64,000 nucleotides of DNA from a virus (Duplodnaviria; Heunggongvirae; Uroviricota; Caudoviricetes). The first letter of the stretch is position 1; each line of letters starts with the position of its first letter. The stretch lies in the IMG/VR virus record IMGVR_UViG_3300010368_000011, positions 1 to 64,000 of that record; one strand, given 5' to 3'. Position numbers and translations under genes: made by a program. The notes under the pieces are model-generated. The model worked only from the letters and a program-made list of their open reading frames with translations. It made no database searches and was not told the DNA's origin. Positions 1-59,402 of this stretch are shown here, piece after piece.

Positions 1-3000
1 CCATGGAATCAGTGCAACCGTTGGGTCATATAATTGATTAGATATTTGATAAGCCGATAGCAACTTACCACTAATGGTGCTTCTTTTGTTTTTAACCCAA
101 AAATAATATCGACGTGACCCGTCGCTTTGGGTGACTTCTGTATATGAGGGGCTAGCCGCATTGAAAATGATCACATCATCTTCATCACCACTGTATTCAG
201 TCGGTGGTACGCGAGATTCAATCCATTCATATATATCAATGCTTCTGTTGGTTATTGTGATTATATTAGACAGTAACAATGCATTCGATAATATAGAAAC
301 AGTCTCAGGACCATTCAACAGAGTATAGGTAACGTCATTACCAGAAACCACATCAACCATACCACTGATACGTTGACCATCTCTGGTTTCTACCGTTATG
401 GATTGATTGACTACTATATTATGACCAGCCTCAACTACAGATTTGATACTGATAGTATTTGCAACTGCACTTGAACTGATTGCGTAACTCTTCAGCTTGC
501 CCCAGTTCTCGGATGATTCTTTTAAAGTGAGAGACTGATTTAAATAATCTTGGTATTCTCTGTTTGATGTGTTCCACCAAATGGTTCCAACTCTACTTGA
601 CGACCATTCATATCCTTCGTCCGTGGTTGCTACACCTTTGTTGTAATATGCTGGATCAAACGAGGTTTCGATATCGATCTGTGAATAGGCTATTGGCTCA
701 TGTAACCCGTTAATAGGATCGTAATGAAACATCTTCTTGTCTAATACTTCGCCTTCCAGTACAACTGCTCTGATATCATAATCGGGTGATGTCGCATTTC
801 CTTTGATTGGGAATTTGAAATTACCTTGGCGTGGTGGAACAATCCATTTGGCATGAGTTTGGGAACGATCATAATCACTGATCGTTACAACACCCGGTTC
901 ATTGGTTGACCCGAATATCACTGATTGGATTCTATTATTGAAATCGGTTTCAAGGATATTAAATCGAACTGGATTATCAAATGAGGTTTTACCAAATTCG
1001 CCCTCTTTCCATGCCCAACATTCGAGAATTTCCAACGGGATATTATTATTCTTAGAGATTGAAAAACCAGATACAGCACGACGAGTGCCTTTCTCTCTAA
1101 TAGAATTCTTGTGAAATTCTAAAGACATAACCTCATTGATATTCATTTCTCTGGCATAATCGCGATAGTACCAACCATAAAGATTGAAGGCTTGATCACG
1201 GAATTTTGGATCAGAAACAGGGTCCAACATATCGTAATAACGAATGAAGTCCTTGGTGCTCTTCTCAAAGTTCGGAACAAGCTTATCACCAGACGCAATA
1301 TATCCGGGTGTATCCAAACGGCCTGCCCACTCTTTTGTTCTTAGTGATTTGATTTCAAGTCTTTTCTGACGCAAACCAGTAAATGGATCATAAACAAGAT
1401 CATTGAATCTAGTTCTATTAGAAATGAACACAGCGTGTTGTATATCTACAATAGTCGCTCTAAGACCGAAAATCAAATGAGGAGATTTAACCGATATGTC
1501 ACCATCAAAACGATACGTGTCAAAATCAGTTATAGGCATTCCAGCAATATCAAGTAGACTGTATCCACCATATACTAACTTCTGAATATTATTCATATGA
1601 CCAAAAGTCGATTGCAGATTCAACGAATTACCAGACGCAACATCCACAAAGATTTGCCCAGTAGTAGCCGTCTGTGACCACACCGCAAATCGTTTGGCAA
1701 CATCTATCCAATCATCATTCTCATAAACCCAACCATTGTCAGTATAATTTCTTCCGTAATCTACAATGAATTCAACAACTTCTTGTGGAGAATTGAATTG
1801 ATGACCATACTGATAGTCGATAATGTTATTCGTTCCAGTCTCATAGTAGAAGTAATCGGTTTCCCCAATTGAGAATTTGCGAGAACGTGTACTAGGATTA
1901 GTATATGTTGTAGTCAATTGAGCAGTTAGTTGTTGACCGGTTGTTATATTTGGATCAATGATCTGGAAACTAGTTGGGCTTAATATATTAATATATTGAT
2001 CTTTGACTTTGAATCCATCAACAAGAACTGAGAATTTTGCTAAATCGTTCGTTCCGCCTAATTTGAATTTGGTCAAGGTGTATGTATCTATACCAGTCTG
2101 AACAGTATAGGTTTCGTTAAACGTAGTTCTTCCAGCAAGAGATGGACGAGCACCATAATTGATTCTAAAGAACGAGTTCGTATAATCATAACCATACACT
2201 TGGTATTTTGAACCACGTTTGAGAATTTGAATACCACTATGGAATTTATTCTCAATCGGTAATCCTTTGTGTAATGTTAACTGCACATCTTCAAAAGGGA
2301 TTTCCACACCGGATGAAGTTTTGATTACTGTTGCAGCTTTATCAATAAAACCATTGGTTTTCCAACCGAGTGATACATTGGATTGTCGAATCGTGTCAGC
2401 AAACTCTTTCGAATTTATTCTCGACATATTTAAATTCTCGGCAACCCATGCGTTAATGCCCGGATTGGAATAATTAATGTCTTCCGAATGAATCTTTAAA
2501 TCATCGATCTTCGGACGGCGAAGAGTTCCATCATCAATCTTAATAGGTCCACCAAACAAATTGGTATCCATACCAATAGTGAATGAATAATCAGACCATA
2601 GGAATTCCACATATCTACCCGGCTTCATCAGATAACCAGCTAGTGCATATGCAAATGGCCCAAGATGTGAATTATGGAATGAGTTCTCAATCGGACTACA
2701 ATCACCATACTTCCAATTTTGTTCAGGGGAAATTAATTGATCAAGACTTACTACACCGGCTGTCACTGGATCAATTAGATCACCATTAACATCAACAGGG
2801 ATGGGTGCTGTGGCGCTCAATAGGAATTTAGTAGGAATGGTGACCCCTTCGGCAGCTATCAACGTGCCGGTCTTCAGATCAGCCCACATGGCATTAGCAG
2901 AACCATATCTCCCGTTGCCATCAGCATCCGTGCTGGTCACCGTATAAGCATCATCCCACCAAGCGGGCTTTATCGTGAAACCTAATATTTCCCATGGGGC

Positions 3001-5742
3001 AACATGTGGACGATCAGTACCATATACGCGTTTGTATATTCCGGTCCAATGACCCTCAAAACCAGCCGAAGTATAATTCCATGTCCACTTGTTAGCCTCG
3101 GAATAACCATCATTGGTTACAGGGTCTAACCCCTGATCGACATACCATCTTTCAAACTCACGACGAATCACTGTGGTATAATCTGAAGACTGGTAATCAA
3201 ATACTCCTGATCTATCAAAAGCCTTTAATTCAAAAATGTCGAAACCATTGAAGGTATGCTTTGTGTCATCGGTAAGATTTTTGACAATATCACTGGCCAC
3301 AGCTTTTTTAGTAACCCATGCGGAATTACTATAAGTCGCATACATCCCATGAGTTTTAGAATACACTCTATCACCTTCAGTTGGTGACAAGGCAGTATAA
3401 TCATTTACAATATTATCAACATCAGGCACATTGGTAATAATGGTTTTATTACCAATGTGATTCTTCAATGAGAATTGATGACCATCCAAAAATGCACTCT
3501 CGGCCACTGATTCTAATTTACGTTTCGCTGGTACAGAAGCAAAGAACCTATTTTCAAGATTAATGATGACATCATCGCGCTCATCATTATATGCTAACAT
3601 CACACTTCCATCATGTTTCAATATATAAGTTATTGAATTTGTTGTGAATTTCCGTGGAGTATAAGCGGGTGCGGCACCAGTTCTGGCGGCTGAAGGGGGA
3701 ATGAGTATTGGTGATACGGCTGCTGTCGTTTCGTTGACATACGTTCCCATCCCGGCATTCCAAAATGGACTCTCTTCAGTAGAGAAGAGAATGTTTTGAG
3801 TTAATACCTTGTCCACCATCTCTGTGGCAGTCAGTCCGTTCAATGTCCCTTGTGGAGTTGAATAACTACCCGCATCCCAAATGGTGCTCAATCGACGAAC
3901 AAACCGTTTCATGAATCGGTTATATTCAAATGACATATTACGAATGGCTTCTGCCAGATCATAATCATCGTTCTGAATTAATGATAAAGGAATCAATAAT
4001 GATCCTTCAGTATCGATAATCGTTGCACCAGAAACCGGATCACGACTGGTCCAACGATAATTATTATTCCCCAATGGAATACCATCAGCATTTGTGTCTA
4101 AAATATTTCTATAATGGTTGATTATATTACTTCTGCTGATACTAGTGATAATATCATGGTTCGGGTTATTACTCAGATTTAGAGGAACACCTTTCTGGGT
4201 TTGATCATACACGAGCGGTGTGGTTGATCGGTTCCATACTGAATGAAGCTGACCGGTCCATGTGTCCTTGAAAAACCTATAACCCAGAACAGATATATTA
4301 TTTTTAGTATAAACAGTACTTTCAAGAGTAAGGTCAAATATAATTTCACCAGTACTATCATATGTCAACGGAAATCCAAGAACAGTATCATCGGAATTAG
4401 TTCTTGTTTGTTTGTATTCAAATAACGAGTTACCGTTATAAGTGTCAACAAATGTTGATGCCTTGCTAATACCACCGTTATCAACCATGTATATTTCATA
4501 TTTCGGTTGAACATTATTCAATCCAAAAATCTTATAAGATGCAAGTGCATCAGAAATATCAGTTGTTTCGATTGAACTCCAATATTCAAGTAATGGTCTT
4601 TTTGATTGCTTACCATTGTATTCTGTTTTATCGATTGCACTTAAATCTTCAAAGTGAACCCACCAGTTTTCTTTCTGCCATGGATCATCATTAACGGTGA
4701 AATCAATTGCAGCATAACGATATACAGGATCATTACCGGTTGGAACACCAATCGCGGTCATGCTAGCTATATCATTATCAGAATCCAGAGTATCAAAATA
4801 TGGAATGGTTGAATAAACCAATGGTGCCCAACCCTCATTTGTATAAAGAAGGAATTTACGGGATGCTGGTGATCGAGAATCTTCCCAGATCATGCCTTCG
4901 ACCGGATTATCAGGTTCACGATTAGAAATAACCGGAACTTTTGATAACCACCGGCCTGCTTCACCACTATAATGATATATCACTGGTCGTTGATAGTTCT
5001 TACCGGTGCGAGCGATGTAAAGATATGTACCAGCCGCAATATCAGATGGAACAGCGTCTTCTGATGCGTATGGCGCGATATTAACCACCTGCCATGCAGT
5101 TCCATCCCATTGGTAAATTGTACGCTGTGCGTCTGTACAATCCTCGCGAAGATCGCCTGTGAGAGTACCGGTCGGTTCATAGCTAGCCAACGGTGCTAAT
5201 CGATCACTGGAATCCAGAATTACTGCTTTCTTGGTGAATGTTCCATTTGCTTCAACATAATGAAGAACCGTCTGCGATGCTGTTGGTTCTTTTACAATGT
5301 ATTCGCCAGTATCGTCCGCTGTTCCATCTCCGGTCCAGAAGTATTTGGAAAAATTAACCCATTTGTCAATATTAATTGGTGGAGTGAAAGAAAAGTAATC
5401 ACATTCAAATAATCTATTTTCATCACTGGTCAATCCACCATTGGCCAAGATGTGACCAATCAAGTCAGCATAAAAAGCACCATTGGCGACTGAACCATCT
5501 TTATTATATGAAACGACACATGGAGATAATTGAAATCGATCATCCAACGGGTTACTATTGGTGATAAATGGTGATCTATCTTTAGTGGATTGGGAGATAT
5601 CGGTGTCGTCACCGATTTGTCCTTCAATGCGTTCAAACGCTTCTGGTTCAAACGCTAAATCATCTGTAGCTCCTAGGAGACGCTTGTTTACATCTGTCTG
5701 GAATACTTTTGGTAGCGACGAAAATACTCTACGATCTTTCAT
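1..5742 (-). CDS. giant virion structural protein (tail-fibre/adhesin-like), >1900 aa, C-terminus runs off window start
   Basis: single uninterrupted minus-strand frame from ATG at 5742-5740 (first ATG after in-frame TAA, AAGG RBS) to position 1; no competing complete ORF >70 aa in 5.7 kb; aromatic YW/WW repeat motifs like those in the sheath gene at 50321. Confidence 0.7.
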   Translation of the reverse strand, partial: MKDRRVFSSLPKVFQTDVNKRLLGATDDLAFEPEAFERIEGQIGDDTDISQSTKDRSPFITNSNPLDDRFQLSPCVVSYNKDGSVANGAFYADLIGHILANGGLTSDENRLFECDYFSFTPPINIDKWVNFSKYFWTGDGTADDTGEYIVKEPTASQTVLHYVEANGTFTKKAVILDSSDRLAPLASYEPTGTLTGDLREDCTDAQRTIYQWDGTAWQVVNIAPYASEDAVPSDIAAGTYLYIARTGKNYQRPVIYHYSGEAGRWLSKVPVISNREPDNPVEGMIWEDSRSPASRKFLLYTNEGWAPLVYSTIPYFDTLDSDNDIASMTAIGVPTGNDPVYRYAAIDFTVNDDPWQKENWWVHFEDLSAIDKTEYNGKQSKRPLLEYWSSIETTDISDALASYKIFGLNNVQPKYEIYMVDNGGISKASTFVDTYNGNSLFEYKQTRTNSDDTVLGFPLTYDSTGEIIFDLTLESTVYTKNNISVLGYRFFKDTWTGQLHSVWNRSTTPLVYDQTQKGVPLNLSNNPNHDIITSISRSNIINHYRNILDTNADGIPLGNNNYRWTSRDPVSGATIIDTEGSLLIPLSLIQNDDYDLAEAIRNMSFEYNRFMKRFVRRLSTIWDAGSYSTPQGTLNGLTATEMVDKVLTQNILFSTEESPFWNAGMGTYVNETTAAVSPILIPPSAARTGAAPAYTPRKFTTNSITYILKHDGSVMLAYNDERDDVIINLENRFFASVPAKRKLESVAESAFLDGHQFSLKNHIGNKTIITNVPDVDNIVNDYTALSPTEGDRVYSKTHGMYATYSNSAWVTKKAVASDIVKNLTDDTKHTFNGFDIFELKAFDRSGVFDYQSSDYTTVIRREFERWYVDQGLDPVTNDGYSEANKWTWNYTSAGFEGHWTGIYKRVYGTDRPHVAPWEILGFTIKPAWWDDAYTVTSTDADGNGRYGSANAMWADLKTGTLIAAEGVTIPTKFLLSATAPIPVDVNGDLIDPVTAGVVSLDQLISPEQNWKYGDCSPIENSFHNSHLGPFAYALAGYLMKPGRYVEFLWSDYSFTIGMDTNLFGGPIKIDDGTLRRPKIDDLKIHSEDINYSNPGINAWVAENLNMSRINSKEFADTIRQSNVSLGWKTNGFIDKAATVIKTSSGVEIPFEDVQLTLHKGLPIENKFHSGIQILKRGSKYQVYGYDYTNSFFRINYGARPSLAGRTTFNETYTVQTGIDTYTLTKFKLGGTNDLAKFSVLVDGFKVKDQYINILSPTSFQIIDPNITTGQQLTAQLTTTYTNPSTRSRKFSIGETDYFYYETGTNNIIDYQYGHQFNSPQEVVEFIVDYGRNYTDNGWVYENDDWIDVAKRFAVWSQTATTGQIFVDVASGNSLNLQSTFGHMNNIQKLVYGGYSLLDIAGMPITDFDTYRFDGDISVKSPHLIFGLRATIVDIQHAVFISNRTRFNDLVYDPFTGLRQKRLEIKSLRTKEWAGRLDTPGYIASGDKLVPNFEKSTKDFIRYYDMLDPVSDPKFRDQAFNLYGWYYRDYAREMNINEVMSLEFHKNSIREKGTRRAVSGFSISKNNNIPLEILECWAWKEGEFGKTSFDNPVRFNILETDFNNRIQSVIFGSTNEPGVVTISDYDRSQTHAKWIVPPRQGNFKFPIKGNATSPDYDIRAVVLEGEVLDKKMFHYDPINGLHEPIAYSQIDIETSFDPAYYNKGVATTDEGYEWSSSRVGTIWWNTSNREYQDYLNQSLTLKESSENWGKLKSYAISSSAVANTISIKSVVEAGHNIVVNQSITVETRDGQRISGMVDVVSGNDVTYTLLNGPETVSILSNALLLSNIITITNRSIDIYEWIESRVPPTEYSGDEDDVIIFNAASPSYTEVTQSDGSRRYYFWVKNKRSTISGKLLSAYQISNQLYDPTVALIPW

Positions 5743-5777
5743 TGGATATGATACAGCCTTTTGATTTATTTATTAGG

Positions 5778-10906: not shown

Positions 10907-11449
10907 CTAGCGGGTGAACTGACCGCGCAAACCCTCAACATCAATAAATTCATTACATCCACGACGCAGTGAATCTGCTACCGCTTCTTTCGATGAAACG
11001 ACTGTAACACGAACATTGCGATTACGGAGTTCGGTGAGTAGTGGGGAAAGTTCGCCATCACCGGAAAACAGAACGATATGATCCACAGCCTTGTTACAGA
11101 CCATGGACATGACGTGAACTGAGATATCGGTAGAGACGTTGGATCGCAGACGCTTGGTCATGCCATCTTCATTATCACGGGTCGGTACGAGTTTGGTTTT
11201 AATGCGATACCCATTGTACGACAATAGATCGGTCAATGGCTTCACCGCAGAGAAACCCGAATCTTCAGCGGCTACTGGTGTGAAATAATCCAATTGGACA
11301 TTTTCACAAAGCTCATCAACGTGGTCCCGAAGTTTGAGGAAATCCAGTTGAACATCTTTGTTTTTCAACGTGGCAAACATATTTGCGCCGTCGAATACTA
11401 CCAGTGTCTTCCGATCTTGTACCAAATCGAAAATGTTATCTTGTTTCAT
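10907..11449 (-). CDS. NYN/LabA-like (PIN-fold) ribonuclease domain protein
   Basis: VVFDGANMF and IVLFSGDGELSP motifs typical of NYN/DUF88; ATG with AAGGAA RBS. Confidence 0.7.
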   Translation of the reverse strand: MKQDNIFDLVQDRKTLVVFDGANMFATLKNKDVQLDFLKLRDHVDELCENVQLDYFTPVAAEDSGFSAVKPLTDLLSYNGYRIKTKLVPTRDNEDGMTKRLRSNVSTDISVHVMSMVCNKAVDHIVLFSGDGELSPLLTELRNRNVRVTVVSSKEAVADSLRRGCNEFIDVEGLRGQFTR

Positions 11450-11590: not shown

Positions 11591-12091
11591 ATGAAATTAG
11601 TGTTTTTAGATATTGACGGTGTTGTTAATACGGCCCGAAACTTATTGTTTCTTCCGAATGAACTTCATCATGGGTCTGGTGCGTTCTTGGAACATATCGA
11701 TCAAGTGTCAGCACACGCTATTCGGTTCCTGTGTGAATACACTGGATGCAAGATCGTGATCAACTCGACGCACGGTGCAAATGGTGAAGATTATATCCGC
11801 GATTTGTTCATGAAGGTTGGATATGATATTTCCGAAGACCTTTATATCCGATGGTGTTCTGGTTTTCCCAACGAGAATATGAATCGTGGGGATGCTATTA
11901 AGCAATTCATGAACACTATGAGAGAATCAGGCGAAGAAGTGACGCATTGGTGTGTTATCGATGATGCATCTTTGCCTGATCTACAAGAACATCATGTTAA
12001 ACCAGATAGTCAAAATGGAATCATGATGCAAGACTTTGAACAAGCTTGTAAAATCTTGGGAAAACCGTTTACCGGATTGATTATCATCTAA
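11591..12091 (+). CDS. HAD-superfamily phosphatase-like protein
   Basis: N-terminal LDIDGVVNTARN (DxDGV motif I). Confidence 0.5.
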   Translation: MKLVFLDIDGVVNTARNLLFLPNELHHGSGAFLEHIDQVSAHAIRFLCEYTGCKIVINSTHGANGEDYIRDLFMKVGYDISEDLYIRWCSGFPNENMNRGDAIKQFMNTMRESGEEVTHWCVIDDASLPDLQEHHVKPDSQNGIMMQDFEQACKILGKPFTGLIII

Positions 12092-22728: not shown

Positions 22729-22757
22729 TTGACACGGTTCTAGAAATTGGGTATAAG
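22729..22757 (+). promoter_or_regulatory. sigma70-like promoter (TTGACA-17-TATAAG) upstream of tRNA pair
   Basis: hexamers and spacing; followed by 21-codon mini-ORF and hairpin CACGTTTTC/GAAAACGTG. Confidence 0.5.
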
Positions 22758-22868
22758 TAAAACATGATAATGATTCGTGCCCTTCCGTTTGCAATCGCAC
22801 CCAAACACGTTTTCCGAAAACGTGCGTAAGCACAACTTTATCTAATTTCCAAATTTTGAAAAGTTTAT

Positions 22869-22942
22869 AAACCGGTAGCTCAGTCTGGCAGAGCAGTGGA
22901 TTCTTACTCCATGTGCCGTGGGTTCAAATCCCACCCGGTTTA
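22869..22942 (+). tRNA. tRNA-Lys(CUU)
   Basis: cloverleaf: acceptor AAACCGG/CCGGTTT, anticodon stem GTGGA/TCCAT, loop TTCTTAC, T-arm GTGGGTTCAAATCCCAC, A73 + encoded CCA. Confidence 0.75.
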
Positions 22943-22978
22943 CCAACTTTATGAAATAGGAGATGACTTTATAATAAT

Positions 22979-23059
22979 GGACACGTTCCCGAGCGGTCAA
23001 AGGGAATTGGCTTTTAACCAATTGCGCAAGCTTCGTGGGTTCGAATCCCACCGTGTTCA
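22979..23059 (+). tRNA. class-II-shaped (Tyr-like scaffold) tRNA with apparent UUU anticodon
   Basis: acceptor GGACACG/CGTGTTC, D-arm TTCCCGAGCGGTCAAAGGGA as in bacterial tRNA-Tyr, perfect anticodon stem AATTGG/CCAATT with loop CUUUUAA, 12-nt variable region, canonical T-arm, A73-CCA. Confidence 0.5.
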
Positions 23060-23062
23060 CCA

Positions 23063-23671
23063 TTATCTTTCAAAGCGTTCAATTAATATTTGTAATCTAG
23101 CATAATTAGCGCCCTTAGCCGCCATATCTAAAGATTTGAGTGTTTGAAATATATTATCGTTTTTTAAATAAGCTGTATACATTTCTTTGTCGGTGTATCT
23201 ATTTTTATTACTTTGTTTGTTCCGTCCTCGCCACGTTGGGGTTATACTATGACAATTGGGACATATCATTTTAAGATTCGATCTATCGTTGTTATCTCTA
23301 TTACCATCAATGTGTTCTAATTCTAACGAAATAAAATGACCTTTCCATTCATCAATATAACAATCGTGGCATTTGTAATCTTGTTCATATAATAATCTTT
23401 CTCTAAGCATCTCATACTTCAGAGAGTTAAAGTCAAGGGACAATATATATTCTTTTCTTGGTGGCCTGATGCCTTTGGCGGTTTGTAGTCGAGTGATATC
23501 TTCATCTGATAACGTTCTACCTGTTGGTTTACCTTTTAATTTATCGCTAACCTTTTTGTTGATTTCTTCTCGTTTGTCCTTTGTAGAAGAACTTCTAGCG
23601 CAATGGCTGGAACAAAAACGGCCAGAGCCATATGTTCCGTCATGATCATTATTACATTTTTCGCAAGTCAA
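23063..23671 (-). CDS. HNH homing endonuclease (paralogue of 8867..9367)
   Basis: LEHIDGNRDNNDRSNLKMICPNCHS motif; TTG start with AGAGGA RBS. Confidence 0.75.
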   Translation of the reverse strand: MTCEKCNNDHDGTYGSGRFCSSHCARSSSTKDKREEINKKVSDKLKGKPTGRTLSDEDITRLQTAKGIRPPRKEYILSLDFNSLKYEMLRERLLYEQDYKCHDCYIDEWKGHFISLELEHIDGNRDNNDRSNLKMICPNCHSITPTWRGRNKQSNKNRYTDKEMYTAYLKNDNIFQTLKSLDMAAKGANYARLQILIERFER

Positions 23672-27249: not shown

Positions 27250-28044
27250 ATGTCACCGGACCTTGGCAATCGTATGAAGAATTACGAAGCGTTTGAAACG
27301 TGTCGTAGAGTTGATGGTTCTCGTCCGGTGTATGTTCGGCTTGATGGTCGCTCCTTCTCCACCTTCACCAGTGGCATGACGAAGCCGTTCGATCAACGGA
27401 TGACCGAAGCCATGAATGAAACCACCAAGTACATGGTGCAAAAAACCAATTCCGTTATCGGTTATGTTCAATCAGATGAAATCAGTTTGATGATCACACC
27501 GACAACCGATACATCTCAATTGATGTTTGGTGGCAAAGTTCATAAAATGGTTAGCGTTTTTGCATCCATGGCCACGGCGAAACTCAACGCGTGTATTCGT
27601 GGGTGGGATGGGTATGAAGATCGCCTGCCCTGCTTTGACGCCCGTGTGATGAACCTGCCTGACCGTATGGAAGCGGTGAACATGCTTCGTTGGCGTTATA
27701 TGGATTGCACTCGTAATGCTATTCAATCAATCGCCCAGTCTATGTTCGATCATGGTGAACTACAGGGCATACAAACGGTTGATCTTATTGAGAAAATCCG
27801 AATGGCGGGTGTTGATCCATATTCATTCCCAAGTCGCAGCATGTATGGATCGTTCGTGCGTAGTGAAAAAGAATATAAATCATTAACGCCAGCTGAGTTG
27901 GCCCATATTCCAGAACACAAGCGCCCAACTGGTCCGTTTTTGCGTAGCGTGCTTAAGGTATACTCGACTGATATGTTTATACAACTGGTCAATCCGGTTG
28001 AAGTGATTTTTGATAATGCGGTTCCTATAATCAATAAAAGTTGA
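27250..28044 (+). CDS. Thg1-like protein (tRNA-His guanylyltransferase / 3'-5' nucleotidyltransferase family)
   Basis: N-terminal NYEAFE...VYVRLDGRSFSTF, GYVQSDEIS, FGGKVHKMVSVFASMATAKLN, CFDARV...LRWRYMDCTRNA track the conserved Thg1/TLP blocks; GAGGGA RBS. Confidence 0.7.
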   Translation: MSPDLGNRMKNYEAFETCRRVDGSRPVYVRLDGRSFSTFTSGMTKPFDQRMTEAMNETTKYMVQKTNSVIGYVQSDEISLMITPTTDTSQLMFGGKVHKMVSVFASMATAKLNACIRGWDGYEDRLPCFDARVMNLPDRMEAVNMLRWRYMDCTRNAIQSIAQSMFDHGELQGIQTVDLIEKIRMAGVDPYSFPSRSMYGSFVRSEKEYKSLTPAELAHIPEHKRPTGPFLRSVLKVYSTDMFIQLVNPVEVIFDNAVPIINKS

Positions 28045-31035: not shown

Positions 31036-31467
31036 ATGTCATTGCAACATCTTAAAGACGAAGCTCTAAAGGCTCGTAAAGAAAAGAACAAAGCCCGTGC
31101 TGATGTGCTGGTAACCATGTTGTCTGATGTCAATATGGCTGGCAAGAATGAGCAACGTGAAGCAACTGATGCCGATGTAGCTATTATTGCTAAACGCTTC
31201 ATGAAGAACCTTGAGAAGACCAAGGCGCTACGTTCGTCACCAGAACTTCTTGAAGAAATCAGTGTTGTTCAGGAATTCATGCCAAAGGTGGCGTCGGCAC
31301 TAAGTCTTGATGATGCTATCGTTAAGGTCTTGACAGAACATTCTGACAAGATTAAAAAAGAAAATATCGGTTTCCTTGTTGGCCAAGTTATGAGAGCCTG
31401 TCAGGGAAAAGCCAACCCGAAAACCGCGAATGAAATGATTACTGCAAAAATTTCAGAAGCCGGTTGA
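31036..31467 (+). CDS. GatB/YqeY-domain protein (YqeY-like, 143 aa)
   Basis: architecture and C-terminal IGFLVGQVMRACQGKANPKTANEMI match the YqeY signature G.vMk...GkAd...v..lv; N-terminal MSLQHLKDEALKARK resembles B. subtilis YqeY start. Confidence 0.65.
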   Translation: MSLQHLKDEALKARKEKNKARADVLVTMLSDVNMAGKNEQREATDADVAIIAKRFMKNLEKTKALRSSPELLEEISVVQEFMPKVASALSLDDAIVKVLTEHSDKIKKENIGFLVGQVMRACQGKANPKTANEMITAKISEAG

Positions 31468-46501: not shown

Positions 46502-46878
46502 ACAGTGAATTGACTTTTATCAAATGGTATAACAAAAACAAAGCTGCCTATATACTCTCCATCTTCTTGTGCCATGCTAGTCATTCTAACATATATACCG
46601 GTTTTGTTTTTGTTGACGAAGTATACATTACCGATTGGAATATCTTTGTCTTCCAGTTCCGACACAGCATCATAGAACCGGACATCTTTCTTAGCTACAA
46701 ACGTTTTATTATCTTTATGAAGGATAACTATCCCTAATTCCATTTTGATCTTTTGTACAATATTCAGCGGGACTGCTTTGTTGTTTTCAATAAAAACAAA
46801 AGGCCGCTCTGTGCTTTCCTTGATCAAATCTAAGAGTTTCATGATAATATCCTGTTGTACCGTTTTATTTATCTCCAA
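46498..46878 (-). CDS. hypothetical protein (126 aa)
   Basis: ORF track. Confidence 0.5.
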   Translation of the reverse strand: MEINKTVQQDIIMKLLDLIKESTERPFVFIENNKAVPLNIVQKIKMELGIVILHKDNKTFVAKKDVRFYDAVSELEDKDIPIGNVYFVNKNKTGIYVRMTSMAQEDGEYIGSFVFVIPFDKSQFTV

Positions 46879-47537
46879 AGCTCATCAAACATACCACGCA
46901 TGATTCGTTTACAACTGGTGGACTTGTTAGACTGATGATCGTTAACCTGATCGTCTTGAAAACGATACGTGCGAATCTTATCGGCTCTCATACCAGAACC
47001 AATCTTTTCGCGCCGATCCTGATTCGTACCGTCCATTGAATCGCTATGAGACAACTGATCCAATTTTTCACACAATTCTTTCATGGCGGTGGTTTCGTTG
47101 GATGTTCGACTCTTACCTTGAATGGTTTGAACGATGCCGGTTGGAAGATGATAAAGCCGTAAGCAATTTTGATGCTTGTTGCGATTCTGTCCACCATTCC
47201 CTGTACCGCTGAACCATTCCTTATAGAAGTGCTCTGTATCGCGTAAGGCGTACCGTGGGTCAGCTTCGGCCTTATCAATGACGGCAACGGTCACGGTAGA
47301 CGTATGAACGCGTCCACGCTTCTCTGTGGGAGGAACACGTTGAATACGATGGCCACCTGATTCTTGATTTAATTTTTTGTGTTTGTCGGGTAGTACGAAA
47401 CTGATCTGATTATCAGACACATGTTTCTCGAAACTTCAACCGAACCGATTGAAAAGCTTAACGTATGCGGATGCCATGTCTGTCATGAATAGGCGGGCAT
47501 CTTCGCCACCTTCACCGGGTCTAATTTCTAGTTTCAT
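46869..47537 (-). CDS. class I peptide-chain release-factor homologue lacking domain 1 (PrfH/RF1-like: PxT-type PPT motif, GGQ motif), interrupted by in-frame TGA at 47438..47436
   Basis: AAGGAGG RBS + ATG 47537; N-part MKLEIRPGEGGEDARLFMTDMASAYVKLFNRFG, TGA, then same frame SFEKHV..SGGHRIQRVPPTEKRGRVHTSTVTVAV...FSGTGNGGQNRNKHQNCLRLYHLPTGIV...DKIRTYRF; colinear with RF1 domains 2-4; the TGA aligns with the conserved Trp of RF1 (YSRYAEARRW). Confidence 0.7.
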
Positions 47538-55249: not shown

Positions 55250-55576
55250 ATGAGTGATAAAGATTATTTTTACTGGGTTCGAAACCCTTACGAATACGTT
55301 ACAGACAAGATGTGTCTTCCCGTTTCACAAGATAAATTCAGTAATTTGTTCAGCATGGGATCAAACTTTAATGGGTTTGATGCATGGGATCATTTGAGTT
55401 TTATCATGTGTCTTCCACAATGGGCGGATGAATATGTTAATTTCTCATTAGGACCGCTTGCTGTGGCTCTTAAAGAGAAAGACCTTATTCTCGTGTCTTA
55501 CACATGGAGTCGTTGGTCACGTTGTATGAACGAATTGATGCAGGTATCATTGATAGATCACTTCATCGTAAAATAG
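55250..55576 (+). CDS. hypothetical protein (108 aa), overlaps next gene by 73 nt in another frame
   Basis: trimmed to ATG after AGGAAGTGGG. Confidence 0.45.
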   Translation: MSDKDYFYWVRNPYEYVTDKMCLPVSQDKFSNLFSMGSNFNGFDAWDHLSFIMCLPQWADEYVNFSLGPLAVALKEKDLILVSYTWSRWSRCMNELMQVSLIDHFIVK

Positions 55577-55929
55577 AGTTTGATCTTCTTGAAAATTTTA
55601 ATGAACGTTGGGCAGCTTTAATACAAGCCGAAGAAATTCAATTAATAGAAGATGGGAATTTCCATAGTCCTACTCCATCATTCGAAATGGCATTTTGGGA
55701 ATCAGTCACCACGGTATGTCGTGAAGAGATGTCCGCATCAAGTGGTGATGAAATGGATGATATGATTGCTTCTCTTATCGAGAATAACATTGACCAGTGG
55801 AATGCCGCCAAACAAAAACCCAAATTGGCTAACTGGTTTGTTGGACAGGTAATGAAGGAATCTCAGGGCAAGGCTGATGCTGCCACGGTTCGCGAAAAAA
55901 TATCCACACTATTAAATCAAGATGGTTGA
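55504..55929 (+). CDS. GatB/YqeY-domain protein (second YqeY-like paralogue)
   Basis: C-terminal LANWFVGQVMKESQGKADAATVREKISTLL matches YqeY signature and the C-terminus of 31036..31467. Confidence 0.55.
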   Translation: MESLVTLYERIDAGIIDRSLHRKIEFDLLENFNERWAALIQAEEIQLIEDGNFHSPTPSFEMAFWESVTTVCREEMSASSGDEMDDMIASLIENNIDQWNAAKQKPKLANWFVGQVMKESQGKADAATVREKISTLLNQDG

Positions 55930-58678: not shown

Positions 58679-58951
58679 TTAACCCCGTTTGTACGGGGTT
58701 AATTTTAATCGGTCCATTCCTTCTACAAGCACTTCGATTTCGGTTGAGAATTTAATTGTCTCTTCCTCTTTGATCTTTTGTTGAATAGGTTTCATCCGTT
58801 CATTAACAAGCTGATCAATCTCGTTGCGGATAGATTTTAATCTCGCATCCATGCGGAAGTATTCGGGCGGTGTGCACTCATTGCAACTACCAAAACCAAT
58901 ACCCATGGATGCGCCGCAGTTATTGCATTCATAATGTGCCATTGTATTCAT
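58679..58951 (-). CDS. small zinc-ribbon protein (about 90 aa)
   Basis: CNNC...CNEC motifs; start trimmed to avoid overlap with 58929..59402. Confidence 0.4.
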   Translation of the reverse strand: MNTMAHYECNNCGASMGIGFGSCNECTPPEYFRMDARLKSIRNEIDQLVNERMKPIQQKIKEEETIKFSTEIEVLVEGMDRLKLTPYKRG

Positions 58952-59402
58952 ACCAATCGTTAGCAAACATATCGACTTGAGATGGTGACCATACCATGAT
59001 CGATCCATTGGATAAAGTCATATCGATATGAGCATTATAATCAACACTGACGCCATCACCAAGGATGGACAGAAGCGGTTCACGGTTCACCGTAAAGGTT
59101 GATCCATCCACCTTGAAAATGAATGGTGATCGTTCTTCATCTAACCAAGCGCGACGAGAAACCCGCTTGCCTTCTTTAACAGCAGCGAGTGCCCATTCCA
59201 TCGTGTTGCTATAGCGCTTTGCAGTTTCAATCGTCACACCATGTAATTCCTTGCGATCAATCACGAAAAGATCGAAACTATCAGGACACGCGAACTGAAC
59301 ATAGTTCACATTCTTTTCATCATATCGATCCAGCATATAGAAAATTTCATATTCATCCGTTAGGATGGTTATGTTATCTGATGATATATATTCATTTAAC
59401 AT
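58929..59402 (-). CDS. hypothetical protein (157 aa)
   Basis: ORF track. Confidence 0.5.
   Translation of the reverse strand: MLNEYISSDNITILTDEYEIFYMLDRYDEKNVNYVQFACPDSFDLFVIDRKELHGVTIETAKRYSNTMEWALAAVKEGKRVSRRAWLDEERSPFIFKVDGSTFTVNREPLLSILGDGVSVDYNAHIDMTLSNGSIMVWSPSQVDMFANDWYEYNGTL

What the first reader, a model, noticed from the sequence alone, without database searches (positions are those of the whole stretch)
22979..23059. Class-II (Tyr-like) tRNA scaffold carrying a UUU anticodon
Acceptor, D-arm (TTCCCGAGCGGTCAAAGGGA, nearly identical to bacterial tRNA-Tyr), 12-nt variable arm and T-arm are canonical class II, yet the unambiguous 6-bp anticodon stem encloses the loop C-U-U-U-U-A-A (anticodon UUU, Lys-type). 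It lies 36 nt downstream of a conventional tRNA-Lys(CUU). It could be a Lys isoacceptor of unusual shape, a mis-charging or recoding tRNA, or a decayed Tyr/ochre-suppressor relative (UUA would need one change).
Basis: seen in the sequence. Interest (0 to 1): 0.55.

Follow-up and report, generated by a model that had tools for sequence, protein, structure and literature searches.

The report
Long-armed lysine tRNA in a jumbo phage
A giant phage carries a well-formed lysine tRNA built on the long-armed body plan normally reserved for Leu/Ser/Tyr tRNAs; it is one member of a large phage family, found mostly for the tRNAs that bacterial defence nucleases are known to cut.

Summary
Window 22979-23062(+) is an 84-nt tRNA gene (ARAGORN Lys/UUU; Rfam tRNA 55.7 bits). 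It has a 12-nt variable region, a 3-bp D stem, A73 and an encoded CCA.

It is not a decayed tRNA-Tyr or a one-off. A pattern scan of viral contigs returned more than 80 distinct, well-paired long-variable-arm tRNA-Lys genes. They also occur in cultured jumbo phages (XacN1, CcrColossus, CcrPW).

Within a phage, these tRNAs share acceptor stems and discriminators with the ordinary tRNA-Lys, not with tRNA-Tyr. AAA codons in the window sit at invariant Lys columns. I therefore read it as a Lys-accepting decoder of AAA/AAG.

Long-arm versions are common for Lys(UUU), Asn(GUU) and Thr(UGU) but rare for Asp and Phe. These three are the published targets of the PARIS AriB and P2 OLD anticodon-stem nucleases. 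My inferred, untested mechanism is that the remodelled body helps the tRNA escape such nucleases.

A dual Lys/Tyr identity cannot be excluded from sequence: A73, U35 and G1-C72 are all present. I found no paper describing the family. Novelty: new variant of a known kind. Interest 0.62.

The parts
22979..23062 (+). Class-II-shaped tRNA-Lys(UUU) gene, 84 nt including the encoded CCA
   Evidence: ARAGORN; Rfam tRNA 55.7 bits; five-arm cloverleaf as minimum-free-energy fold
22979..22985 (+). Acceptor stem 5' strand GGACACG. It pairs with 23052-23058 (CGTGTTC) and includes G2.U71.
   Evidence: Sequence; fold
22986..23005 (+). Nucleotides 8-27 (canonical tRNA positions 8-26): U8-U9, the class II D arm (3-bp stem CCC/GGG, 11-nt loop GAGCGGTCAAA) and A26. 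19/20 identical to E. coli tyrU.
   Evidence: Alignment A1; nearest D arms among phage tRNAs belong to other long-arm Lys, Trp, Thr and Cys tRNAs
23006..23022 (+). Anticodon arm: stem ATTGG/CCAAT and loop CTTTTAA. Positions 39-41 are C-C-A.
   Evidence: Sequence
23013..23015 (+). Anticodon TTT (UUU), which reads AAA/AAG
   Evidence: ARAGORN places the anticodon at position 35
23023..23034 (+). Variable region TGCGCAAGCTTC: 1-nt head, 2-bp stem GC/GC, GCAA tetraloop, TTC tail
   Evidence: The family pattern is a hairpin with a GNRA loop and a 3-4-nt 3' tail.
23035..23051 (+). T arm GTGGG-TTCGAAT-CCCAC
23059..23062 (+). Discriminator A73 and encoded CCA
   Evidence: Sequence
22869..22945 (+). 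Conventional class I tRNA-Lys(CUU), the upstream partner
   Evidence: ARAGORN; Rfam 66.7 bits. 'Class II UUU + class I CUU' is the commonest pairing in related loci (23 of 89).
23063..23671 (-). HNH homing-endonuclease gene whose stop codon abuts the 3' end of the tRNA
   Evidence: PHROGs HNH endonuclease families, E = 4e-26. A homologue in L252/L253 lies next to a long-arm tRNA-Thr(UGU).
22729..22757 (+). Promoter-like TTGACA-17 nt-TATAAG upstream of the two Lys tRNA genes
   Evidence: Read directly from the sequence. The consensus scan did not report it, because the last base of the -10 hexamer is G. Weak evidence.

Best explanation
This is a functional elongator tRNA of a roughly 317-kb jumbo myovirus. 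I propose that the host lysyl-tRNA synthetase charges it with lysine and that it decodes AAA (and AAG). It would work alongside the neighbouring class I tRNA-Lys(CUU).

Its body is class II: a 3-bp D stem with a Tyr/Ser-type D loop, plus a hairpin variable arm. It belongs to a large family of phage tRNA-Lys genes built the same way.

The most likely reason for the remodelled body is escape from host anti-phage nucleases that disable tRNA-Lys(UUU). These act by cutting the anticodon arm while also reading the D loop and body. Examples are PARIS AriB and other OLD-family Toprim nucleases, and possibly PrrC, RloC or Schlafen-type enzymes. The phage would then keep a Lys decoder when the host copy is destroyed.

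Shown:
- The gene and its fold.
- The existence, pairing conservation and isotype bias of the family.
- Lys-type acceptor features across the family.
- AAA read as Lys in the window's genes.

Inferred:
- Charging by LysRS.
- Expression.
- The anti-nuclease role (about 0.4 on its own).
For: Gene quality.

Family:
It gave 94 Lys(UUU) and 11 Lys(CUU) genes of at least 82 nt.
- 87 distinct sequences were parsed. Each acceptor pair is canonical in 84-85 of 87, with 5-7 pair types.
- Variable regions fold as hairpins with GNRA loops. Mean energy is -2.86 kcal/mol against -0.62 for shuffles.
- Cultured phages XacN1, CcrColossus and CcrPW carry 89-90-nt tRNA-Lys(CUU) genes.

Lys identity:
- The UUU anticodon plus A73 is the published bacterial Lys identity set (PMC9976931).
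- Within a locus, class II Lys shares at least 6/7 of the acceptor 5' strand with class I Lys in 19/92 pairs. The figure is 2/37 for Tyr and 2.6% for random pairs.
- The U73 variant is concordant between the two classes (nominal Fisher p = 1e-5).
- In L006 the two classes differ only in the D arm, the variable region, two T-loop bases and the discriminator (A73 in class I, U73 in class II).

Code:
- AAA sits at sheath columns K38 (K in 143/144 homologues) and K673 (120/148), and at conserved Thg1 lysines.
- The one AAA in a Tyr-dominated column (693) is AAG-encoded Lys in the three closest relatives.

Anti-nuclease role:
- The Asp control gave 35 hits in the whole collection, 16 of them real. 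Phe gave 8 real in 120 hits.
- In loci chosen for Lys, the long fractions are Thr(UGU) 9/29 and Asn 9/44, against 0 for Asp, Phe, Ala, Pro and Thr(GGU).
- AriB cuts Lys(UUU), Thr(UGU) and Asn(GUU) at 40|41. It needs U39, and its AlphaFold 3 model contacts D-loop U16-U17 (PMC12409363). P2 OLD prefers Thr(UGU) and also cuts Lys and Asn (PMC12445682).
- The window tRNA has C39 and no U16-U17.
- Long-arm forms keep U39-C40 more often than class I phage forms. For Lys the counts are 63/90 against 39/108. This fits two alternative escape routes.
- 28 of 89 loci carry both a class I and a class II Lys(UUU).
- The window encodes a Tad2-like anti-defence protein and RNA-repair-type domains (HAD_SAK_2, Thg1-like, NYN).
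Against: - There are no expression, charging or cleavage data, and the host is unknown.
- The tRNA also carries the main E. coli Tyr determinants: A73, U35, G1-C72 and a long arm (PMC9976931).
- G2.U71 is an antideterminant for E. coli class II LysRS.
- The window's variable arm is at the short end of the family, with only a 2-bp stem.
- Some contigs carry long arms on nearly all isotypes (L401, L404, L409). Trp, Met and Ile(UAU) are also affected. Neither fact is explained by the AriB target list.
- Long variable arms are themselves targets of other defences, for example Septu acting on tRNA-Tyr (PMC13096335, abstract only).
- No syntenic orthologue was found.
Confidence: 0.6

Rival explanations
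1. Dual-identity or mis-charging tRNA. TyrRS (or LeuRS) charges the class II body, so Tyr or Leu is inserted at AAA/AAG codons at some level. This would resemble the nematode nev-tRNAs.
For: - A73, U35 and G1-C72 are the critical E. coli Tyr determinants, and all are present (PMC9976931).
- The D arm is 19/20 identical to E. coli tyrU.
- G2.U71 weakens recognition by class II LysRS in the one system tested.
- nev-tRNAs show that class II tRNAs with foreign anticodons can be charged with Leu (PMC3333845, abstract).
Against: - AAA makes up 3.8% of codons and sits at invariant Lys columns.
- The one AAA found in a Tyr column is AAG-encoded Lys in relatives.
- 19/84 family members have U73, which is incompatible with Tyr or Leu identity.
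- Acceptor stems follow the class I Lys of the same phage, not Tyr.
- G15 and C48 are not the A15-U48 pair of E. coli tRNA-Leu (own knowledge of Asahara et al. 1993).
Confidence: 0.1
2. A functional Lys tRNA whose long arm has no defence-related role. The arm could be a neutral by-product of recombination among clustered tRNA genes next to homing endonucleases. It could also serve another purpose, such as recognition by a phage enzyme, stability, or avoidance of host modification or turnover.
For: - An HNH endonuclease gene abuts the tRNA, and a homologue abuts a long-arm Thr tRNA elsewhere.
- Some phages have long arms on most isotypes.
- Trp, Met and Ile also show long forms.
Against: - The isotype bias is strong: Lys, Asn and Thr(UGU) against Asp, Phe and Thr(GGU).
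- The arm recurs on many unrelated D-arm and acceptor backgrounds.
- It is associated with retained U39-C40.
Confidence: 0.22
3. A decoy. The tRNA is made mainly to bind and titrate a tRNA-directed immune effector, not to supply translation.
For: The AriB authors raise this possibility for phage tRNAs in general (PMC12409363 discussion).
Against: - The gene keeps the full set of translation-relevant features: 7/5 acceptor/T stems, a canonical anticodon loop with U33 and A37, an encoded CCA and a Lys-type acceptor.
- If the altered body prevents effector binding, it would make a poor decoy.
Confidence: 0.04
4. A decayed tRNA-Tyr or former ochre suppressor, that is, a pseudogene.
For: The D arm and the CTTC end of the variable region resemble those of E. 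coli tRNA-Tyr.
Against: - All stems are intact and the Rfam score is 55.7 bits.
- Going from GUA to UUU needs two changes, and the result is an exact Lys loop, CUUUUAA.
- More than 80 independent relatives carry the same anticodon.
- The sequence is identical in independent assemblies.
Confidence: 0.03

Closest known systems
[quoted passage not shown]
   Same: - They are phage-encoded copies of the tRNAs that a defence nuclease destroys.
- They differ from the host tRNA at position 39/41 and in the D loop. The window tRNA likewise has C39 and lacks U16-U17.
- They lie in a tRNA cluster interspersed with HNH endonuclease genes.
   Different: - The T5 tRNAs are class I in shape, at 75-78 nt. The window tRNA has a class II D arm and a hairpin variable arm.
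- Resistance of the window tRNA to any nuclease has not been tested.
Long-arm 'tRNA-Lys' genes annotated in Xanthomonas phage XacN1 and Caulobacter phages CcrColossus and CcrPW
   Same: They are 89-90-nt tRNAs with a Lys anticodon, a class II D arm and a GAAA-capped variable hairpin. They occur in jumbo-phage tRNA clusters and are 74-78% identical to the window gene.
   Different: - Their anticodon is CUU, not UUU.
- In XacN1 the partner is a class I Lys(UUU), the reverse of the window's arrangement.
- CcrColossus has U73.
- The XacN1 paper does not comment on the gene.
Bacterial tRNA-Tyr (class II)
   Same: The D arm is 19/20 identical to E. coli tyrU. Both have a short variable arm ending in CUUC, plus A73, G1-C72 and U35.
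   Different: - The anticodon is UUU, not GUA.
- The anticodon loop and stem are of Lys type.
- Family acceptor stems follow tRNA-Lys, not tRNA-Tyr.
- A profile test places the scaffold nearer to long-arm Asn/Lys/Thr than to phage Tyr (weak).
Nematode nev-tRNAs (class II tRNAs with Gly/Ile anticodons, charged with Leu; PMC3333845)
   Same: A class II body is combined with an anticodon belonging to a class I isotype.
   Different: - nev-tRNAs are eukaryotic, Leu-type and mis-charged.
- Here the family keeps Lys-type acceptor and discriminator features, and the genome uses AAA as Lys.
allo-tRNAs and other irregular cloverleaves (8/4, 9/3; PMC5389517)
   Same: They are non-standard tRNA architectures with long variable arms and varied anticodons. 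They were found by mining metagenomes and phages.
   Different: The window tRNA has the standard 7/5 acceptor/T configuration. allo-tRNAs have Ser/Sec-like bodies and carried a Lys anticodon only once in that survey.

Membership tests
tRNA (Rfam RF00005) | Cloverleaf sequence and structure scoring above the curated gathering score | tested here: met
   55.7 bits against 29, full-length match to model positions 1-71. ARAGORN also calls it.
Class II (long-variable-arm) tRNA architecture | Variable region of at least 10 nt that forms its own stem-loop | tested here: met
   The region is 12 nt, T-GC-GCAA-GC-TTC, and forms a hairpin in the minimum-free-energy fold. The stem is only 2 bp, at the short end of the family range of 11-21 nt.
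Class II (long-variable-arm) tRNA architecture | 3-bp D stem with a purine-purine 13:22 pair and an enlarged D loop | tested here: met
   CCC/GGG stem, G13/A22, 11-nt loop. 19/20 identical to E. coli tyrU.
Bacterial tRNA-Lys (substrate of class II LysRS) | Anticodon U34-U35-U36 and discriminator A73 | tested here: met
   Anticodon loop CUUUUAA and A73. Determinants are those listed in PMC9976931.
Bacterial tRNA-Lys (substrate of class II LysRS) | No antideterminant; actual lysylation | not testable with these tools
   G2.U71 is present. It is an antideterminant for E. coli class II LysRS and a determinant for Borrelia LysRS-1. The host and its type of LysRS are unknown.
Phage long-arm tRNA-Lys family (defined here) | Lys anticodon loop, class II D arm, GNRA-capped variable hairpin with a 3-4-nt 3' tail, 7/5 acceptor/T stems, location in a phage tRNA cluster | tested here: met
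   All features are present. The window holds 15 tRNA genes in a jumbo-myovirus context. The loop-masked sequence scores best on the family profile, 34 bits against 21 for Tyr. After the T arm is also removed the signal is weak: Asn-long 9.4 bits, Lys-long 5.9 bits, Tyr none.
Bacterial tRNA-Tyr | Anticodon GUA | tested here: not met
   The anticodon is UUU. Only U35 is shared.
Bacterial tRNA-Tyr | A73, G1-C72 and a long variable arm | tested here: met
   All are present. For this reason tyrosylation cannot be excluded from sequence alone.
Ochre/amber suppressor tRNA | Anticodon complementary to a stop codon (UUA/CUA/UCA) | tested here: not met
   The anticodon is UUU.
Mis-charging class II tRNA of nev-tRNA type (Leu identity) | A73 plus Leu-type tertiary elements (A15-U48, placement of G18G19), by the E. 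coli rules | tested here: inconclusive
   A73 is present. The sequence has G15 and C48, which is the Tyr-type Levitt pair. The Leu rules are taken from memory (Asahara et al. 1993) and were not checked in a tool.
Phage anti-defence tRNA (T5 tRNA-Lys against PARIS type) | Sequence differs from the nuclease's determinants (U39, A41, U16-U17 for AriB) | tested here: met
   The window tRNA has C39-C40-A41 and the D loop GAGCGGUCAAA, without U16-U17. Determinants are from PMC12409363.
Phage anti-defence tRNA (T5 tRNA-Lys against PARIS type) | Resists cleavage and rescues phage growth on a defended host | not testable with these tools
   This needs biochemistry and genetics.
allo-tRNA (8/4 or 9/3) | Acceptor stem of 8-9 bp with a T stem of 3-4 bp | tested here: not met
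   The configuration is 7 bp / 5 bp.

The most novel reading that the evidence does not exclude
Rebuilding a class I tRNA on a class II body (new D arm plus a hairpin variable arm) is a general phage counter-defence. It would make the phage's own Lys(UUU), Asn(GUU) and Thr(UGU) decoders poor substrates for anticodon-stem nucleases of the PARIS-AriB/OLD type, and perhaps for PrrC, RloC or Schlafen enzymes. The cognate synthetases, which rely on the anticodon and discriminator, would still accept them. The window tRNA would be one instance.
Probability: 0.4. Interest if true: 0.8.

Novelty: new variant of a known kind. Interest (0 to 1): 0.62.

Why it matters
Textbook tRNA biology restricts the long variable arm in bacteria to Leu, Ser, Tyr and Sec. 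Here the same architecture recurs, on many sequence backgrounds, for Lys, Asn and Thr(UGU) in phages. It even occurs in cultured coliphages: an 83-nt tRNA-Asn is present in 232 T5-like genomes.

If the arm protects against tRNA-cutting immune nucleases, three things follow:
- It would be a second, structural route of escape, beside the point mutations known from T5.
- It would help explain why large phages carry redundant Lys, Asn and Thr tRNAs.
- It would show which surfaces of a tRNA these nucleases read.

It would also provide natural examples of synthetases accepting a foreign body plan, which is useful for engineering orthogonal tRNAs.

If the tRNA instead has a dual Lys/Tyr identity, it would be a rare natural case of programmed ambiguity in a virus.

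Tried and rejected
- **Near and distant DNA searches.** Megablast of window 20-26 kb against cultured phages found nothing. Blastn of the tRNA against E. coli genomes found nothing at E <= 1.
- **Exact 29-mer of the tRNA in viral contigs.** No match.
- **Synteny.** The flanking 2OG oxygenase and HNH proteins were used to fetch related loci. Relatives are at most 50% identical and none has an orthologous tRNA.
- **Peptide deformylase alignment for the codon test.** The Lys codons fall in variable columns, so it was uninformative.
- **tblastn of window proteins against the loci already fetched.** Too few hits.
- **Phe control scan.** It was confounded: 71 of 120 hits were tRNA-Ser(UGA).
- **Profile comparison of the scaffold.** It loses most of its signal once the T arm, which my scans had fixed, is removed. 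I use it only as weak evidence.
- **An AAA in a Tyr-dominated sheath column.** It looked like a hint of recoding. I rejected it because the three closest relatives encode Lys by AAG there.
- **Literature.** Ten full-text searches found no paper describing long-arm tRNA-Lys, Asn or Thr in phages. Absence from this library is not proof of absence.
- **aaRS genes.** No aminoacyl-tRNA synthetase gene was found in the window.
Full report
**1. The observation**

Window 22979-23062(+) is called by ARAGORN as tRNA-Lys(ttt), 84 nt. Rfam's tRNA model scores 55.7 bits against a gathering score of 29, with E = 8e-11.

Folded alone, it adopts a five-arm cloverleaf at -26.4 kcal/mol:
- A 7-bp acceptor stem, GGACACG/CGTGTTC, with G2.U71.
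- A 3-bp D stem with an 11-nt loop.
- A 5-bp anticodon stem, ATTGG/CCAAT, plus a possible 26-44 pair.
- The loop CUUUUAA.
- A 12-nt variable region, T-GC-GCAA-GC-TTC.
- A standard T arm, then A73 and an encoded CCA.

Nucleotides 8-27 are 19/20 identical to E. coli tyrU. A conventional tRNA-Lys(CUU) lies 33 nt upstream, at 22869-22945. The region is identical in a second, independent assembly.

**2. Context**

The window is part of a jumbo myovirus:
- It holds 15 tRNA genes.
- It encodes a tail sheath, a T4 gp15-like protein and a head-tail adaptor.
- A structural protein is 26-31% identical to proteins of Atu_ph07, PA5oct and similar phages.
- The same peptide deformylase occurs on a 317-kb contig.

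No close DNA relative exists among cultured phages.

Genes around the tRNA:
- Upstream: a peptide deformylase and a 2OG-Fe(II) oxygenase.
- Downstream: an HNH homing-endonuclease gene on the opposite strand, abutting the 3' end of the tRNA.

Elsewhere the window encodes the following:
- A Thg1-like protein.
- Two GatB/YqeY-domain proteins.
- An NYN RNase.
- An RNA-repair-type HAD_SAK_2 domain.
- A Tad2-like anti-Thoeris protein.

No aminoacyl-tRNA synthetase was found. All the other tRNAs in the window are 74-78 nt, which is class I length.

**3. It is not a one-off**

Blastn of the 84-mer against cultured phages found 89-90-nt genes annotated 'tRNA-Lys' in Xanthomonas phage XacN1 and Caulobacter phages CcrColossus and CcrPW. 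These have a CUU anticodon, a class II D arm and a GAAA-capped variable hairpin.

I then scanned IMG/VR for CTTTTAA, 18-27 nt, GGTTCGAATCC. A class I tRNA has 12-13 nt in this interval.

ARAGORN on those loci found 94 Lys(UUU) and 11 Lys(CUU) genes of at least 82 nt. Of these, 87 distinct sequences could be parsed:
- All seven acceptor pairs are formed in 84 of them.
- Each acceptor position is canonical in 84-85 of 87, with 5-7 different pair types.
- Anticodon-stem pairs 2-5 are canonical in 84-87 of 87.
- Variable regions are 11-21 nt long. Typically they have a 1-nt head, a 3-5-bp stem, a GNRA loop (GAAA 32, GCAA 7, GTAA 4) and a 3-4-nt tail (CATC 20).
- Mean folding energy of the variable region is -2.86 kcal/mol, against -0.62 for shuffles.

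This amount of compensatory change shows a functional and diverse family. Many members lie in contigs longer than 100 kb.

There, only 16 of 120 hits were long Lys tRNAs, half of them inside dense phage-like tRNA arrays.

**4. Which amino acid?**

- **Identity elements.** The published bacterial Lys identity set is the three anticodon bases plus A73 (PMC9976931). All are present. The main E. coli Tyr determinants (A73, U35, G1-C72 and a long arm) are also present, so sequence rules alone do not settle the question.

- **Family evidence.** Within one locus, class II Lys tRNAs share at least 6/7 of the acceptor 5' strand with the class I tRNA-Lys in 19/92 pairs. The figure is 2/37 for tRNA-Tyr, about 0-3% for other isotypes, and 2.6% for random between-locus pairs.
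   - A U73 discriminator occurs in 19/84 members and is incompatible with Tyr, Leu or Ser identity.
   - Class I Lys tRNAs with U73 occur only in phages whose class II Lys also has U73 (6 against 0 pairs; nominal Fisher p = 1e-5).
   - In L006 the class I Lys(CUU) and the class II Lys(UUU) have identical acceptor stems, anticodon stems and T stems. They differ in the D arm, the variable region, two T-loop bases and the discriminator.
   - The window's own two Lys tRNAs do not share an acceptor stem (3/7 positions).

- **Codon evidence.** AAA makes up 3.78% of codons in the window and AAG 2.20%. Amino-acid composition is ordinary, with K 6.0% and Y 4.0%.
   - In the tail sheath aligned to 150 representatives, AAA occupies column 38 (K in 143/144), column 673 (K in 120/148) and column 492 (R in 115/149).
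   - AAA also encodes two conserved Thg1-family lysines.
   - One AAA, at position 693, falls in a Tyr-dominated column (113/148). The three closest relatives have Lys there, encoded by AAG. It is therefore a real clade-specific Lys.

AAA means Lys in this genome. A tRNA that put Tyr at 3.8% of codons would be strongly deleterious. I conclude that it is most likely a Lys acceptor, at about 0.8. Direct charging was not tested.

**5. Is it 'Tyr-like'?**

Against E. coli, yes. Among phage tRNAs, the nearest D arms belong to other long-arm Lys tRNAs (L049, L034, CcrColossus) and to long-arm Trp, Thr and Cys tRNAs.

With the anticodon loop masked, the window tRNA scores as follows against profiles of phage tRNA groups:

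| Profile | Bits |
|---|---|
| Long-arm Lys | 34 |
| Long-arm Thr | 29 |
| Long-arm Asn | 28 |
| Tyr | 21 |
| Ser | 18 |

Part of that advantage comes from the T loop that my scans had fixed. With the T arm also removed, only weak scores remain: Asn-long 9.4, Lys-long 5.9, Thr-long 4.0, and none for Tyr, Ser or Leu. The scaffold is best described as the generic class II core used by this group of phage tRNAs.

**6. Why a class II body? (inference)**

The loci fetched for Lys also contained long-arm versions of other class I isotypes, but very unevenly:

| Isotype | Long-arm / total |
|---|---|
| Thr(UGU) | 9/29 |
| Asn(GUU) | 9/44 |
| Trp | 6/29 |
| Met | 7/50 |
| Lys(CUU) | 7/51 |
| Asp | 0/42 |
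| Phe | 0/38 |
| Pro | 0/37 |
| Ala | 0/27 |
| Thr(GGU) | 0/22 |

Independent scans with the same spacing and T loop gave these results:

| Anticodon loop | Hits | Loci with a real long-arm tRNA |
|---|---|---|
| Asp control, CTGTCAC | 35 in the whole collection | 16 |
| Phe control, CTGAAAA | 120 | 8 (71 were Ser(UGA), 41 not tRNAs) |

Lys(UUU), Thr(UGU) and Asn(GUU) are the tRNAs that the PARIS effector AriB cleaves:
- The cut falls between positions 40 and 41, in U36-A-A-U-C|A.
- U39->A abolishes cleavage, and U16->C impairs it.
- The AlphaFold 3 model places the second monomer on D-loop U16-U17.
- Restoring the cleavage site in the T5 tRNA does not restore cleavage, so the body matters (PMC12409363).

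P2 OLD, another Toprim nuclease, prefers Thr(UGU) and also cuts Lys(UUU) and Asn(GUU) (PMC12445682). tRNA-Lys(UUU) is also the target of PrrC, RloC and a bacterial Schlafen.

A class II core replaces the D loop. It also plants a hairpin directly 3' of the anticodon stem, next to the 40|41 bond. The window tRNA additionally has C39 in place of U39.

Long-arm phage tRNAs keep the canonical U39-C40 more often than class I phage tRNAs:

| Isotype | Long-arm | Class I | Nominal p |
|---|---|---|---|
| Lys | 63/90 | 39/108 | 2e-6 |
| Asn | 66/123 | 40/109 | 0.012 |
| Thr | 24/95 | 3/30 | not significant |

This is what two alternative escape routes would produce. Many phages are also redundant: 28 of 89 loci hold both a class I and a class II Lys(UUU).

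All of this is correlative.

Points against the anti-nuclease reading:
- Some contigs carry long arms on almost every isotype.
- Trp, Met and Ile(UAU) are not known AriB targets.
- Long variable arms are themselves cut by other systems, such as Septu acting on tRNA-Tyr (PMC13096335, abstract).
- The sequences are phylogenetically related, so the p-values are nominal.

I put the anti-nuclease role at about 0.4.

**7. Known or new?**

Phage tRNAs acting as counter-defence are known (T5 against PARIS, Retron-Eco7 and PrrC). Class II tRNAs with foreign anticodons are known in nematodes (nev-tRNAs, Leu-charged) and as allo-tRNAs.

Long-arm tRNA-Lys and tRNA-Asn genes sit unremarked in GenBank records:
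- XacN1, CcrColossus and CcrPW carry the Lys form.
- 232 T5-like genomes carry an 83-nt tRNA-Asn, among them the BASEL phage Bas26 and Proteus phage PM135.
- T5 itself has class I forms.

Ten full-text searches found no paper that describes or explains them. The library does not cover subscription journals. I rate the finding as a new variant of a known kind: a tRNA-Lys on a class II body, belonging to a broad and apparently undescribed phage family.

**8. Verdict**

- The 'unusual Lys isoacceptor' reading is supported.
- The 'decayed Tyr' and 'recoding' readings are not supported.
- Dual Lys/Tyr charging remains a minority possibility.
- The proposed anti-nuclease function is a testable hypothesis, and cultured phage-host systems are available for testing it.

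Noticed in passing
IMG/VR loci L260-L377 and L415-L532; cultured phages such as MZ501072 (L654 6001-6083): [quoted passage not shown] An 83-nt tRNA-Asn is present in 232 cultured T5-like genomes (Epseptimavirus, Proteus phage PM135), whereas T5 itself has the class I form.
   Followed up: partly
L401, L404, L409 (also L379, L380, L389, L398): Some phage contigs carry long-arm versions of many isotypes at once: Met, Glu, Asp, Cys, Arg, Val, Trp, Asn and Lys. In those lineages the class II body looks like a general property.
   Followed up: no
L004-L121; L128: The reverse oddity also occurs. Many phage tRNA-Leu genes are of class I length, about 77 nt, without a long variable arm: 12 of 27 Leu(UAG), 8 of 18 Leu(UAA) and 11 of 18 Leu(CAA).
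   Followed up: no
L591, L595: tRNAs with a Ser-like class II body (GGAAGGGTGGCCGAGTGGTTTA...) but a GAA (Phe) anticodon.
   Followed up: no
window 23063-23671 (-); L252/L253 4001-4701: An HNH homing-endonuclease gene abuts the 3' end of the class II tRNA-Lys. A 44%-identical homologue in another jumbo-phage contig lies directly next to a long-arm tRNA-Thr(UGU). This suggests that homing endonucleases help move or maintain these tRNA genes, as in the T4 and T5 tRNA regions.
   Followed up: partly
window 46869-47420 (-): A 183-aa release-factor-1-like ORF holding only the end of the PCRF domain and the GGQ (RF-1) domain. Its E-value against T. maritima RF1 is 6e-32. The codon-recognition half is absent from this ORF.
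   Followed up: no
window 10907-11449 (-), 11591-12091 (+), 27250-28044 (+), 31036-31467 (+), 55504-55929 (+): tRNA/RNA-handling genes scattered across the window, the last two beside its tRNA clusters: an NYN RNase, a HAD_SAK_2 ('Swiss army knife' RNA-repair) domain, a Thg1-like 3'-5' polymerase closest to a bacterial TLP structure (4kgk), and two GatB/YqeY-domain proteins.
   Followed up: no
window 58929-59402 (-): A protein with a Tad2-like (Thoeris anti-defence 2) domain, so the phage carries at least one recognisable counter-defence gene.
   Followed up: no
window 22869-22945 (+): The 'conventional' tRNA-Lys(CUU) is itself slightly unusual. Its acceptor stem starts A1-U72, A2-U71, A3-U70, and its anticodon loop is UUCUUAC (U32, C38).
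   Followed up: no
window 22979-23058 (acceptor pair 2-71): The class II tRNA-Lys has G2.U71. In Borrelia this pair is essential for class I LysRS and is an antideterminant for E. coli class II LysRS. 7 of 87 family members have G.U at this pair. It may hint at a host with a class I LysRS.
   Followed up: partly
window 22806-22824 and 22729-22757: A 19-nt perfect palindrome, CACGTTTTCCGAAAACGTG, lies between a promoter-like TTGACA-17-TATAAG and the first Lys tRNA gene. No T-run follows it, so it is not a terminator.
   Followed up: no
window 1-5769 (-): An open reading frame of more than 1923 aa runs off the left end of the window. It has no Pfam match.
   Followed up: no
L145 (Thalassovita litoralis DSM 29506), L165, L172, L173, L181, L211, L214, L223: A few long-arm tRNA-Lys(UUU) genes occur as singletons in cellular genome records, including one cultured Rhodobacterales isolate. 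Whether they sit in prophages was not checked.
   Followed up: no
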